A stretch of DNA of 64,000 bases from a virus, in the IMG/VR virus record IMGVR_UViG_3300045973_000169, positions 13,000 through 76,999 of that record; one strand, given 5' to 3'. A model generated the notes under the pieces. The model was not told the origin of the DNA, searched no databases, and saw nothing but the letters and a program-made list of their open reading frames with translations. Within the stretch, counting starts at the first letter, position 1. Each line of letters starts with the position of its first letter. Positions 20,764-20,886 of this stretch are shown here, piece after piece. The position numbers and the translations under genes were made by a program.

Positions 20764-20886
20764 AGCGCGATAGGCCAATAGGTAGGCCCCGAGAAATCAA
20801 GTGTCTCTGTATAAGAGAACGTTCGGCAATCAAAACTTTCACTCTTAATGACGAAATTCCAGGTTCGAGTCCTGGTCGCGCTGTCA
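20764..20886 (+). tRNA. atypical ~120-nt tRNA-like gene with an internal insertion
   Basis: Perfect 7-bp acceptor AGCGCGA/TCGCGCT, D-arm GGCC-AATAGGTA-GGCC and T-arm CCAGG-TTCGAGT-CCTGG, but about 70 nt (not 23-38) lie between D-arm and T-arm; a possible anticodon hairpin TCTC-TGTATAA-GAGA would give TAT. Confidence 0.5.

What the first reader, a model, noticed from the sequence alone, without database searches (positions are those of the whole stretch)
20764..20886. 120-nt tRNA-like gene with perfect acceptor, D- and T-arms but a ~45-nt insertion
A flawless 7-bp acceptor (AGCGCGA/TCGCGCT), D-arm (GGCC-AATAGGTA-GGCC) and T-arm (CCAGG-TTCGAGT-CCTGG) enclose about 70 nt. A canonical tRNA has 23-38 nt there. 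The segment is too short for a group I intron and too long for a class II variable arm. A hairpin TCTC-TGTATAA-GAGA could be an anticodon arm reading AUA (anticodon TAT). This could be an intron-containing tRNA, a permuted or extended tRNA, or a tRNA-like primer or decoy RNA. A reverse transcriptase is encoded in the window, which makes a primer role worth considering. Flanking HNH genes make mobile-intron scenarios plausible.
Basis: seen in the sequence. Interest (0 to 1): 0.55.

Follow-up and report, generated by a model that had tools for sequence, protein, structure and literature searches.

The report
Phage tRNA with extra protein-binding arm
This 120-base gene is a complete tRNA-shaped RNA with an extra fifth arm built like the small RNAs that cluster around the phage's Ro60-like RNA-binding protein gene, so it is most likely a tRNA-mimicking partner RNA of that protein rather than an intron-bearing or broken tRNA.

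Summary
Window 20764-20883 (+) has perfect acceptor, D and T arms enclosing 70 nt. The insert is not in the anticodon loop. A canonical anticodon arm (UUUCA-CUCUUAA-UGACG, anticodon CUU) lies just before the T arm. A 47-nt module replaces nucleotide 26, between the D stem and the anticodon stem. Deleting the module in silico gives a 73-nt tRNA-Lys by default ARAGORN.

The module is a hairpin (..CUG-loop-AAG..) followed by single-stranded UUCNGCAA. A covariance model found more than 30 such five-armed tRNAs in phage and metagenome DNA. Covariation is strong in the acceptor, D, T and module helices, but the anticodon stem is eroding.

The same helix plus motif forms free-standing small RNAs that crowd around DUF2828 genes: 32 observed against 1.4 expected within 2 kb. 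The window's DUF2828 protein (22602-23978) models as a full-length Ro60 fold. Some relatives carry the module fused to a YrlA-like permuted tRNA core.

Best reading: a new, unpermuted variant of tRNA-mimicking Y RNA. Protein binding is inferred, not shown.

The free-standing module also resembles Dictyostelium Class I RNAs, with ten hits below Rfam's curated (gathering) score.

The parts
20764..20770 (+). Acceptor stem, 5' strand (AGCGCGA)
   Evidence: 7/7 pairs with 20876-20882. The family acceptor helix is 99% paired, and all 7 pairs show compensatory changes.
20771..20788 (+). U8, A9 and the D arm (GGCC-AAUAGGUA-GGCC), with A14, A15, G18 and G19
   Evidence: D helix 96% paired. U8 27/27, A14 26/26; A15 pairs with U48 as a Levitt pair.
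20789..20803 (+). 5' linker of the inserted module (CCGAGAAAUCAAGUG). It is purine/A-rich, as in relatives. One of these nucleotides stands in for tRNA position 26.
   Evidence: Alignments A2 and A3.
20804..20818 (+). Module hairpin UCUCU-GUAUA-AGAGA (signature ..CU G-loop-A AG..).
   Evidence: Helix 3: 94.6% paired, 6/6 pairs with changes on both sides. RNAalifold predicts it independently.
20819..20836 (+). Single-stranded conserved motif ACG-UUCGGCAA-U (core 20822-20829; family consensus UUCNGCAA) plus an A-rich 3' linker
   Evidence: Columns ..T.C.GCAA are invariant or nearly so in A2/A3. The same motif occurs in the free-standing modules.
20837..20853 (+). Anticodon arm UUUCA-CUCUUAA-UGACG (4 of 5 pairs, including one G-U). 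U33 is 20843, anticodon CUU (Lys) is 20844-20846, A37 is 20847.
   Evidence: after in-silico removal of the insert, default ARAGORN calls tRNA-Lys(ctt), 73 nt. The family anticodon helix is only 73.8% paired.
20854..20858 (+). Variable loop AAAUU (U48 pairs with A15)
20859..20875 (+). T arm CCAGG-UUCGAGU-CCUGG
   Evidence: The family T helix is 98.6% paired.
20876..20883 (+). Acceptor 3' strand UCGCGCU plus discriminator G. No CCA is encoded (UCA follows).
   Evidence: 17 of 27 relatives encode CCA. A CCA-adding enzyme is encoded at 42950-44170.
20893..21456 (+). Decayed neighbour element. Closing helix AGAUAGC (20894-20900) / GUUAUCU (21448-21454) followed by GU; D-arm remnant GCUUAAACGGUAGAG. 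The HNH endonuclease ORF 20961-21461 lies inside it.
   Evidence: An intact orthologue with helix AGAUAAC/GUUAUCU is at L004 9243-9370. This explains the weak YrlA hit at 20841-20942.
22477..22556 (+). Free-standing module: AAG-ACUAG-U-UUCUGCAA ... CUAGUCU-GU. It ends 46 nt before the Ro60-like start codon.
   Evidence: Orthologous to the L004 motif at 9873 (helix 9865-9945).
22602..23978 (+). Ro60-fold protein gene (458 aa; Pfam DUF2828 + DUF7788 + weak VWA). It is the presumed protein partner.
   Evidence: AlphaFold2 (AF2) model, pLDDT 88.9. The top 10 Foldseek PDB hits are all full-length Ro60 (9kop E 2.4e-9; 1yvr TM 0.68).
24378..24467 (+). Free-standing module (helix AGAGAGA/UCUCUCU, UACAGCAA) whose body holds a T-loop-like hairpin GGG-UUCGAUU-CCC
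24489..24547 (+). Free-standing minimal module (GGAUCC helix, UUCAGCAA, ...CUG)
   Evidence: Rfam RF01414 hit at 25.8 bits, E 0.026.
24563..24626 (+). Free-standing minimal module (AGGAAGA/UCUUCCU, UUCAGCAA)
42950..44170 (+). CCA-adding enzyme (PolyA_pol head + RNA-binding + HD domains). Context only: it could complete the 3' end of the RNA.

Best explanation
The element is a stable, tRNA-derived non-coding RNA: a complete L-shaped tRNA body (acceptor, D, anticodon and T arms) with a fifth arm inserted at position 26, the hinge between the D stem and the anticodon stem. The fifth arm is a helix with the signature ..CUG/AAG.. followed by single-stranded UUCNGCAA. It is the same module that forms a family of small free-standing RNAs packed around Ro60-fold (DUF2828) genes in many phages. 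In the free-standing RNAs the helix joins the 5' and 3' ends. Here the helix is capped by a loop and the RNA ends lie in the acceptor stem.

Proposed mechanism. The RNA is cut out of a + strand transcript by RNase P and 3' trimming, and may receive CCA from the phage CCA-adding enzyme. The module arm docks the phage Ro60-like ring protein encoded 1.7 kb downstream. The tRNA body then offers a tRNA-shaped surface that links the protein to tRNA-handling enzymes or tRNA-targeting factors, for example RNA-repair enzymes or host anticodon nucleases. This parallels bacterial YrlA Y RNAs, which pair a Ro60-binding stem with a tRNA-like domain.

Shown: the five-arm anatomy, its conservation and covariation, module identity with the free-standing RNAs, their clustering at Ro60-fold genes, and the Ro60 fold of the protein. 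Inferred: processing, protein binding and the downstream function.
For: Anatomy:
- The anticodon arm lies directly before a 5-nt variable loop.
- Removing the insert turns 19 of 26 family members into standard 71-76-nt tRNAs by default ARAGORN. The window copy becomes tRNA-Lys(ctt).

Family:
- Model R1 scores members at 51-110 bits and ordinary tRNAs below 47 bits.
- 28 aligned members are 93.2% paired against 62% in shuffles (0/500). The module helix has 6/6 covarying pairs.
- RNAalifold predicts the same four helices on its own.
- U8, A14 and a covarying Levitt pair are kept.

Module and the free-standing RNAs:
- Same helix plus motif.
- 32 modules lie within 2 kb, on the same strand, of the Ro60-like gene in 13 loci. 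The control rate predicts 1.36 (Poisson p 2e-32; Fisher odds ratio 22).

Protein:
- The top 10 PDB fold matches are all full-length Ro60.

Bridge to known Y RNAs:
- L004 9243-9370 carries the module's closing helix and motif around a T-AS-D permuted tRNA core. It hits Rfam YrlA (28 bits, E 2.8e-4) and Dicty Class I (21 bits) on the same RNA.

Independent isolates found by RNA similarity alone:
- Aeromonas phages Ah1 and APT65 have 2 and 3 such elements within about 2.2 kb of their DUF2828 gene. LAh_6 has one 2.3 kb upstream.

Redundancy:
- In several arrays a normal tRNA with the same anticodon is also present (Val, Gly, Asn, Phe). This fits duplicated tRNA genes put to a new use.

Context:
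- RNA ligase, RlaP and a CCA-adding enzyme are encoded in the window.
Against: - There are no binding or expression data. The protein partner is inferred from gene neighbourhood only.
- Among 23 metagenome and IMG/VR loci chosen by the RNA alone, only 2 hold a DUF2828 gene in the DNA fetched (14 kb or less, often much less). Their neighbours differ, for example DHH/DHHA1 phosphoesterases. The linkage is therefore not obligatory. Modules also spread through tRNA arrays.
- The motif of known Ro60-binding sites (GNCGAAN0-1G) is not part of the module.
- Half of the members, this one included, keep a canonical anticodon loop. In 11 of 14 of these the discriminator suits the anticodon, which could mean aminoacylation or decoding still matters.
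- In this copy the motif has G at position 4, no CCA is encoded, and G73 does not suit Lys. Some decay cannot be excluded.
- The AAA+ ATPase that follows the element in relatives has no homologue in this window.
Confidence: 0.6

Rival explanations
1. It is a working decoder tRNA, tRNA-Lys(CUU), whose extra arm at position 26 is tolerated by the synthetase, EF-Tu and the ribosome, much as a class II variable arm is. The arm would serve only as a handle, for example for protection, sorting or regulation by a binding protein.
For: - The anticodon loop CUCUUAA is canonical, with U33 and A37. All the tertiary-contact nucleotides checked (U8, A14, the 15:48 Levitt pair, G18/G19 and the T loop) are present.
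- ARAGORN calls a normal tRNA once the insert is removed.
- 14 of 27 members have canonical anticodon arms, and 11 of those 14 have matching discriminators.
- No other tRNA-Lys is seen in the window.
- A CCA-adding enzyme is encoded.
Against: - The anticodon stem is the least conserved helix (73.8% paired). RNAalifold does not predict it.
- About half of the members have degenerate anticodon arms or none. L001, for example, has a 4-nt hairpin there.
- Normal isoacceptors with the same anticodon sit in the same arrays.
- In this copy the stem has only 3 Watson-Crick pairs plus one G-U. G73 is not the Lys discriminator, and CCA is absent.
- No tRNA with an arm at position 26 is known to decode (my own knowledge).
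Confidence: 0.2
2. It is a precursor tRNA with a new kind of protein-dependent intron at position 26/27. The module would be the recognition signal for an endonuclease, and the phage RNA ligase would reseal the exons into a 73-76-nt tRNA.
For: - Precise removal of the insert restores a standard tRNA in 19 of 26 members.
- RNA ligases are encoded in the window and in related phages.
Against: - The same module occurs many times as a free-standing unit with its own closing helix, not inside any tRNA. It also occurs around a permuted tRNA core.
- No bulge-helix-bulge or group I features were seen, and Rfam gives no intron hit.
- Members with no usable anticodon arm still keep the module and the tRNA body.
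- ARAGORN's own intron model is energetically poor: -23.2 against -28.0 kcal/mol for the five-arm model.
Confidence: 0.07
3. It is a dead tRNA gene, disrupted by insertion of a repeated or selfish sequence, with no function of its own.
For: - This copy lacks CCA, has a weak anticodon stem and carries a motif variant.
- The neighbouring element is clearly decayed and invaded by an HNH gene.
Against: - More than 30 members from unrelated phages keep perfect acceptor, D, T and module helices through compensatory changes. That requires selection on the RNA.
- Helix sequences differ between copies within one genome. This is unlike recent repeat insertions.
Confidence: 0.05
4. It is a tRNA-like primer or template partner for a reverse transcriptase encoded in the window.
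For: Only the general precedent that tRNAs prime reverse transcription. No tool result supports it here.
Against: - No RVT domain was found in any ORF of 290 aa or more in the window.
- No reverse-transcriptase domain is listed among the genes called or annotated in the related loci fetched via the Ro60-like gene or by RNA similarity. Pfam domains were on record for L004-L007 only.
- The conserved neighbour is a Ro60-fold protein.
Confidence: 0.02

Closest known systems
YrlA-type bacterial and phage Y RNAs (Rfam RF02553; Chen et al. 2014, PMC4201824)
   Same: - Encoded within a few kb of a Ro60-fold protein gene, on the same strand.
- Combines a putative protein-binding stem/motif with a tRNA-like domain holding authentic D and T arms, U8, A14, G18/G19 and a covarying Levitt pair.
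- A 7-bp acceptor, suited to RNase P and CCA addition as shown for M. smegmatis YrlA.
- Relatives L004 and L006 carry a true YrlA-like permuted core joined to the same module.
   Different: - The topology is unpermuted: the RNA ends are in the acceptor stem, not in the protein-binding stem.
- A full anticodon arm is retained.
- The protein-binding candidate is a fifth arm at position 26.
- The conserved motif is UUCNGCAA, not GNCGAAN0-1G.
- The protein is DUF2828/DUF7788, which is not recognised by Pfam TROVE.
- The Rfam score is 14.8 bits against a gathering score of 69.
Dictyostelium Class I RNAs (Rfam RF01414; Kjellin et al. 2021, PMC7919456)
   Same: The free-standing modules have the same design: a short stem joining the 5' and 3' ends, the motif (CC)UUACAGCAA right after the 5' strand, an A-rich variable loop and a 3' end ...CUG(U), in a total of about 55-65 nt. 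There are ten RF01414 hits of 18-30 bits in phage loci, all on the gene strand. The authors used 25 bits or more as their candidate threshold.
   Different: - All hits are below Rfam's gathering score (41.5).
- Class I RNAs are reported as unique to dictyostelids and as bound by the RRM protein Rnp1A.
- In the element under study the stem is capped and the module is embedded in a tRNA.
- Homology versus convergence is untested.
Canonical tRNAs, including class II tRNAs with long variable arms
   Same: All four arms are present, with the conserved tertiary nucleotides and a 7-nt anticodon loop with U33 and A37. The gene lies near tRNA genes (18324-18398 and others). A standard tRNA results once the insert is removed.
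   Different: An extra arm of about 47 nt sits on the 5' side of the anticodon stem (position 26). In class II tRNAs the extra arm sits at positions 44-48. The total is 120 nt. Neither the Rfam tRNA model nor default ARAGORN detects it.
Phage T4 stable RNAs rnaC and rnaD (species 1 and 2 RNAs)
   Same: Stable RNAs of about 119-139 nt with unknown function, encoded inside a phage tRNA cluster. rnaC has a T-arm-like hairpin near its 3' end.
   Different: No UUCNGCAA module was found in them, and no module was detected in the 12-kb T4 tRNA region. R1 gives 24.9 bits for part of rnaC and nothing for rnaD. There is no DUF2828 gene in that region.
Intron-containing tRNAs (bacterial group I; archaeal bulge-helix-bulge introns at non-canonical positions)
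   Same: A tRNA gene interrupted by extra sequence whose removal restores a standard tRNA.
   Different: The insert is 41-66 nt, too short for group I. It lies at 26/27, not in the anticodon loop. No BHB motif is evident. The insert is itself a conserved structured module that also exists outside tRNAs.

Membership tests
tRNA (RF00005) | 7-bp acceptor stem, D arm with A14/G18/G19, T arm with a GTTCRANYC loop, and U8 | tested here: met
tRNA (RF00005) | Anticodon arm (5 bp plus a 7-nt loop with U33 and R37) separated from the D stem by a single nucleotide (26) | tested here: not met
   The arm exists (20837-20853, 4 of 5 pairs, U33, A37), but 48 nt instead of 1 separate it from the D stem.
tRNA (RF00005) | Reaches the curated detection threshold (Rfam gathering score; default ARAGORN) | tested here: not met
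   No hit.
tRNA (RF00005) | Aminoacylation and use in decoding | not testable with these tools
   Indirect only: G73 does not suit Lys, no CCA is encoded, and a CCA-adding enzyme is present.
YrlA Y RNA (RF02553) | Encoded within about 4 kb of a Ro60 orthologue, on the same strand | tested here: met
   The Ro60-fold ORF 22602-23978 lies 1.7 kb downstream on the same strand.
YrlA Y RNA (RF02553) | tRNA-like domain with T and D arms and a Levitt-pair covariation | tested here: met
YrlA Y RNA (RF02553) | Permuted order T arm - acceptor-like stem-loop - D arm, with the RNA ends forming the Ro60-binding stem | tested here: not met
   The order is acceptor-D-module-anticodon-T-acceptor. The permuted form exists in relatives.
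YrlA Y RNA (RF02553) | GNCGAAN0-1G motif near the 5' end | tested here: not met
   Only GACGAAAU at 20850-20857, which lacks the final G and lies in the anticodon stem and variable loop. The conserved motif is UUCNGCAA.
YrlA Y RNA (RF02553) | Rfam gathering score (69 bits) | tested here: not met
   14.8 bits. That match spans this T arm plus the neighbour's D-arm remnant.
YrlA Y RNA (RF02553) | Physical binding to the Ro60 orthologue | not testable with these tools
   Needs immunoprecipitation or a gel-shift assay.
Dictyostelium Class I RNA (RF01414) | Short stem joining the 5' and 3' ends, with the 11-nt motif CCUUACAGCAA next to the 5' strand | tested here: inconclusive
   This holds for the window's free-standing copies (24489-24547 and others). 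In the tRNA-embedded element the stem is loop-capped and the motif reads ACGUUCGGCAA.
Dictyostelium Class I RNA (RF01414) | Rfam gathering score (41.5 bits) | tested here: not met
   The best phage hits score 29.8, 29.6, 28.0 and 25.8 bits.
Ro60/TROVE protein (for ORF 22602-23978) | HEAT-repeat ring plus a C-terminal vWA domain (Ro60 fold) | tested here: met
   AlphaFold2 model, pLDDT 88.9. The top 10 Foldseek hits are all Ro60 over about 500 aligned columns, with TM up to 0.68.
Ro60/TROVE protein (for ORF 22602-23978) | Sequence-level match to TROVE or to solved Ro60 chains | tested here: not met
   Pfam reports DUF2828, DUF7788 and weak VWA_2 only. phmmer against PDB finds no Ro60.
Group I or BHB intron-containing tRNA | Intron in or near the anticodon loop, with group I core helices or a bulge-helix-bulge at the exon-intron junctions | tested here: not met
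   The insert lies at 26/27 and is 47 nt. There is no Rfam intron hit. The predicted folds show no BHB. A dedicated BHB search was not run.
tmRNA | G3:U70 alanine identity, no D stem, and an internal tag reading frame | tested here: not met
   The 3:70 pair is C3:G70 and the D arm is full. ARAGORN finds no tmRNA.

The most novel reading that the evidence does not exclude
The helix plus UUCNGCAA module is the recognition element of a large, unrecognised branch of the Ro60 family: the DUF2828/DUF7788 proteins, found in more than 700 sequenced phages and, according to plant papers that mention DUF2828, in eukaryotes too. On this reading, the Dictyostelium Class I RNAs are the eukaryotic counterparts of these phage RNAs, that is, Y-RNA-like partners of DUF2828-type Ro60 proteins. 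Their partner and mechanism have been unclear since 2004, and they were reported as unique to dictyostelids. The five-armed tRNAs would then be tRNAs drafted into this ribonucleoprotein system, for example as decoys or adaptors in the contest over tRNA cleavage and repair.
Probability: 0.3. Interest if true: 0.85.

Novelty: new variant of a known kind. Interest (0 to 1): 0.72.

Why it matters
If correct, three things follow.

(1) It defines a tRNA architecture not described before: a fifth, conserved arm at position 26. It recurs in many tRNA-rich phages, including cultured Aeromonas phages where it is unannotated, and standard tRNA finders miss it.

(2) It gives a candidate RNA partner, and hence a testable function, to the widespread phage 'DUF2828 / RNA-binding protein', which models as Ro60. 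Felix O1-like, KVP40-like, Listeria, Staphylococcus, Campylobacter and mycobacterial phages would all join the Ro60-Y RNA field through a different RNA signature.

(3) The shared stem plus UUACAGCAA design offers a concrete hypothesis for the unexplained Dictyostelium Class I RNAs.

It also bears on how phages manage tRNA damage and repair. The element sits among RNA ligase, RlaP and CCA-adding enzyme genes.

Tried and rejected
- ARAGORN's model (tRNA-Glu UUC with a 41-nt intron at 31/32 and an 11-nt variable loop). Rejected: the stem is poor, the energy is -23.2 against -28.0 kcal/mol, and the model does not transfer to relatives.
- My own early models: a Leu CAA loop at 20796-20802; a CCGAG/UUCGG stem enclosing an intron (this is the minimum-free-energy fold, MFE); a three-way junction replacing the anticodon arm. 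Dropped once relatives showed the canonical anticodon arm next to the variable loop. The CCGAG/UUCGG pairing is specific to this copy (G at motif position 4).
- tmRNA-like reading frames in the insert. They are not conserved between the window and L006.
- Hammerhead, pistol, twister or C/D-box readings of AAUGACGA / CUGAUAA. No Rfam support.
- GACGAAA as the Y RNA CGAA motif. It lies in the anticodon stem and is not conserved.
- Searches that found nothing. No near relatives in the phage database. No exact matches in IMG/VR for either end of the RNA. No relatives of the upstream protein or of the Ro60-like protein in IMG/VR. The upstream 131-aa protein has only one weak relative, apart from the source contig's own copy.
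- The IMG/VR pattern scan CTGT..AAG..TWCAGCAA gave about 119 chance hits and one true member, L063.
- A conserved downstream neighbour for the RNA-selected loci. None was found: the 340-360-aa ORFs are DHH/DHHA1 phosphoesterases or have no Pfam match, not ATPases.
- Promoter and terminator scans around the element are at background level.
- T4 rnaC and rnaD tested as possible members. They are not members.
- Literature searches for DUF2828, PF11443, Ro60 plus phage, and Class I RNA found no description of these RNAs.
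Full report
**1. The observation**

The acceptor is AGCGCGA (20764-70) / UCGCGCU (20876-82). U8 and A9 follow, then the D arm GGCC-AAUAGGUA-GGCC (20773-88). The T arm CCAGG-UUCGAGU-CCUGG (20859-75) abuts the 3' acceptor strand. The discriminator is G (20883), followed by UCA, not CCA. Seventy nt lie between the D and T arms.

Default ARAGORN and Rfam at gathering score do not see it. An E-value scan of the region gives no tRNA hit either. The window comes from a 206,638-bp JGI metagenome contig. 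Its phage has no close relative in the phage database or in IMG/VR.

**2. Finding relatives**

The ORF 1.7 kb downstream (22602-23978) matches PHROG 850 'RNA-binding protein' and Pfam DUF2828 + DUF7788. It has homologues in 711 phage records: Felix O1-like, KVP40-like, Aeromonas, Campylobacter, Listeria, Staphylococcus, Enterococcus and Bacillus phages, and mycobacteriophages, where it is annotated 'Ro-like'.

I fetched loci around its closest metagenomic relatives (56-59% identity) and around representative phage homologues. A simple scan for a T arm plus a perfect acceptor enclosing a long insert then found homologous long tRNA-like genes:
- L006 7938-8061. Rfam calls it a tRNA at 47 bits with a 65-nt insert.
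- Two adjacent copies in L007.
- One in Aeromonas phage LAh_6 (L001 3488-3603).

All share a covarying hairpin ..CUG-loop-AAG.. followed by UUCAGCAA.

A metagenome pattern scan and one IMG/VR hit added many more. A covariance model built from 16 of them (R1) scores members at 51-110 bits and ordinary tRNAs below 47 bits. It also recovers members that were not in the seed. Among these are two and three unannotated copies in the cultured Aeromonas phages Ah1 and APT65.

**3. Where the insert really is**

In the better-preserved members, a canonical anticodon arm sits immediately before a 4-5-nt variable loop and the T arm. Examples are L162 UUAGC-CUGUCAC-GCUAG (Asp) and L170 UUAGC-CUACGGA-GCUAG (Arg).

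The window copy has UUUCA-CUCUUAA-UGACG (20837-53), with anticodon CUU, U33, A37 and variable loop AAAUU. So the extra 47-48 nt (20789-20836) lie between the D stem and the anticodon stem, replacing nucleotide 26. Deleting them in silico turns 19 of 26 members into standard 71-76-nt tRNAs for default ARAGORN. The window copy becomes tRNA-Lys(ctt), 73 nt.

ARAGORN's own Glu-plus-intron model is energetically worse: -23.2 against -28.0 kcal/mol. It also does not transfer to relatives.

**4. Is the structure selected?**

On the 28-member alignment A3, 93.2% of cells form pairs against 62% in column shuffles (0/500). Sliding the partners drops pairing to 40-47%.

| Helix | Cells paired | Pairs with compensatory changes |
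|---|---|---|
| Acceptor | 99% | 7/7 |
| D | 96% | 3/4 |
| Module | 94.6% | 6/6 |
| T | 98.6% | 3/5 |
| Anticodon | 73.8% | 5/5 |

RNAalifold, run without my structure, predicts the first four helices but not the anticodon stem. Tertiary-contact nucleotides are kept: U8 27/27, A14 26/26, and the Levitt pair 22/27, switching between A15:U48 and G15:C48.

The anticodon arm is uneven. Fourteen of 27 members have a stem of 4 or more bp with U33 and R37, and 11 of those 14 have a discriminator that suits the anticodon. The rest are degenerate (L167) or replaced (L001). In several arrays a normal tRNA with the same anticodon lies nearby.

The family therefore looks like duplicated tRNA genes that gained the module. 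They are now selected for the L-shaped body plus the extra arm, and less for decoding.

**5. What the module is**

The motif [U/A]NC-N-GCAA recurs on the gene strand around every DUF2828 gene I fetched. There it belongs to free-standing units of the form:

5'-(UU)AAG-helix-N-UUCAGCAA-(40-80 nt, A-rich)-helix'-CUG-U(UUAA)-3'

Helix sequences differ from copy to copy while complementarity is kept. The tRNA-embedded arm is the same unit, with the terminal helix capped by a loop.

The window holds three such units downstream of the gene (24378-24467, 24489-24547, 24563-24626). One more ends 46 nt before the start codon (22477-22556). There is also a decayed unit that now contains the HNH gene: helix 20894-20900 / 21448-21454. 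Its intact orthologue is L004 9243-9370.

With a strict detector (motif, a 7-bp helix with at most one G-U, and a following G), 32 units lie within 2 kb, same strand, of the gene in 13 loci. The control rate is 52 hits in 1.99 Mb of strand and predicts 1.36 (Poisson p 2e-32). A helix accompanies the motif in 32/72 cases near the gene against 52/1496 in controls (Fisher p 2e-24). The 12-kb T4 tRNA region has none.

**6. The protein**

An AlphaFold2 model built from 38 homologues (pLDDT 88.9) was searched against the PDB. The ten best matches are all full-length Ro60:
- Thermus phage phiRo60 (9kop), E 2.4e-9
- Xenopus Ro (1yvr), TM 0.68/0.61
- human Ro60

After these come only isolated vWA domains. 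Sequence methods do not see the relationship. [quoted passage not shown]

**7. The bridge to Y RNAs**

In L004 (9243-9370) and L006 (9396-9522), the module's closing helix and UUCAGCAA enclose a permuted tRNA-like core: T arm, acceptor-like hairpin, D arm. That RNA hits Rfam YrlA over the core (28 bits, E 2.8e-4) and Dicty_Class_I over the terminal stem and motif (21 bits) at once.

The module thus comes in three formats:
- (a) minimal;
- (b) YrlA-like, with a permuted tRNA core;
- (c) embedded as a fifth arm in an unpermuted, complete tRNA. This is the finding.

The weak YrlA hit at 20841-20942 is this T arm read together with the D-arm remnant of the decayed neighbour.

**8. Mechanism, with its limits**

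Shown: the anatomy, the selection on it, the identity of the module with the free-standing RNAs, their concentration at Ro60-fold genes, and the fold of the protein.

Inferred:
- The RNA is processed like a tRNA. It has a 7-bp acceptor and an elbow, and a CCA-adding enzyme is encoded at 42950-44170.
- The arm binds the Ro60-like protein.
- The tRNA body connects the particle to tRNA-handling or tRNA-targeting factors. RNA ligase and RlaP genes lie nearby.

Against a strict pairing: only 2 of 23 loci selected by the RNA alone contain the gene in the DNA fetched (14 kb or less). Neighbours there vary, and modules spread through tRNA arrays. In the complete genomes reached by RNA similarity (Ah1, APT65), and in LAh_6, reached via its DUF2828 gene, the gene is adjacent.

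A decoding role for this copy cannot be excluded. An intron role is unlikely, because the module exists on its own. A reverse-transcriptase primer role has no support, since no RVT domain was found.

**9. Comparison and novelty**

It works like a YrlA-type Y RNA, but it fails YrlA's defining topology, motif and score. It is therefore a new variant, not a member.

The free-standing modules share the design and core motif of Dictyostelium Class I RNAs. There are ten RF01414 hits of 18-30 bits, all below gathering score. Those RNAs are reported as unique to dictyostelids. Whether this is homology remains open.

T4 rnaC and rnaD are analogous in location and size but are not members. Literature searches found no description of these RNAs or of an RNA partner for DUF2828. 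The library is incomplete.

**10. Verdict**

This is a real, conserved RNA gene: a five-armed tRNA whose extra arm is a Y-RNA-like module. Confidence in the anatomy is high. Confidence in the Ro60-partner mechanism is about 0.6.

Noticed in passing
window 18401-18531 (+): A second over-long tRNA-like gene (131 nt) directly after tRNA-Met 18324-18398. It has the T arm GUAGG-UUCGAGU-CCUAC and ends in ACCA, but the acceptor has only 5 of 7 pairs. The insert of about 60 nt has no UUCNGCAA motif. R1 gives 34.8 bits. ARAGORN calls it only at a lowered threshold.
   Followed up: partly
window ~24182-24365 (+): A tRNA-like gene of about 184 nt, with T arm ACAGG-UUCGAGU-CCUGG, a 6/7 acceptor, an ACCA end and an insert of about 107 nt. 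It lies just upstream of the free-standing module at 24378. It overlaps the ORF 24073-24333, which looks spurious. ARAGORN calls it only at a lowered threshold.
   Followed up: no
window 17828-17912 (+): An 82-85-nt tRNA (anticodon CAU) found by Rfam at 33 bits but missed by default ARAGORN. A Cys-rich ORF on the minus strand (17913-18254) lies between it and the next tRNA.
   Followed up: no
window 20893-21456 (+): The HNH endonuclease gene (20961-21461) sits inside a decayed Y-like element. Its closing helix (AGAUAGC/GUUAUCU) and D-arm remnant survive. The ORF's last codons overlap the element's 3' strand ...GUUAUCUGUUUUAA. An intact orthologue is at L004 9243-9370.
   Followed up: partly
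window 22477-22556; also L004 9865-9945, L011 5871-5950, L001 5837-5952, L254 ~1818, L009 ~6952: A free-standing module ends within about 20-60 nt of the start codon of the Ro60-like gene in several unrelated phages. This suggests co-transcription or an autoregulatory leader.
   Followed up: partly
window 38996-40471, 42950-44170, 44920-46062: An RNA-repair-type gene set: an RNA ligase, a CCA-adding enzyme (PolyA_pol + HD) and an RlaP nucleotidyltransferase. Also present are NAD salvage genes (NAMPT 29613-31262, PRPP-synthetase-like 27818-28672), a ferritin (24970-25440) and a radical SAM protein (26595-27509).
   Followed up: partly
L012 4422-4973 (Listeria phage LMLPA3, PQ349084): A ROOL RNA match at 89 bits, just under the gathering score of 99.1. 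It lies in the tRNA array, 1 kb upstream of the DUF2828 gene.
   Followed up: no
L007 6692-6766; L004 11475-11564: A tRNA with a CUA (amber-reading) anticodon in a related metagenomic phage, and a tRNA with an 8-nt anticodon loop (UCAA) next to the Ro60-like gene in another. These may be suppressor or frameshift tRNAs.
   Followed up: no
L253 8994-9110 and 9128-9249 (Aeromonas phage Ah1, NC_055733); L254 671-788, 966-1082, 3715-3830 (Aeromonas phage APT65, OP491958): Five-armed tRNA elements (54-90 bits with R1) lie in unannotated intergenic DNA of cultured phages, next to their DUF2828 genes. The motif variant there is UUCCGCAA/UACCGCAA.
   Followed up: yes
L001 3686-4897, L006 8281-9387, L007 8348-9547, L254 3870-5081: An AAA+ ATPase gene follows the five-armed tRNA and precedes or neighbours the Ro60-like/vWA gene in relatives, reminiscent of a MoxR-vWA pair. 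No homologue is detectable in this 64-kb window.
   Followed up: partly
L004 12139-16774: A Ter-like cluster (vWA-TerF-like, two TerD genes, a PRTase and TerC) lies directly downstream of the Ro60-like gene in the closest relative.
   Followed up: no
L255 4909-5172 (phage T4 rnaC/rnaD): T4 rnaC contains GAACGUUCGG, the same 10-mer as window 20817-20826. rnaD has a UUCC-CUGAGUAA-GGAA hairpin and ...ACAGCAGA... near its 3' end. These are faint echoes of the module that did not reach any score threshold.
   Followed up: partly
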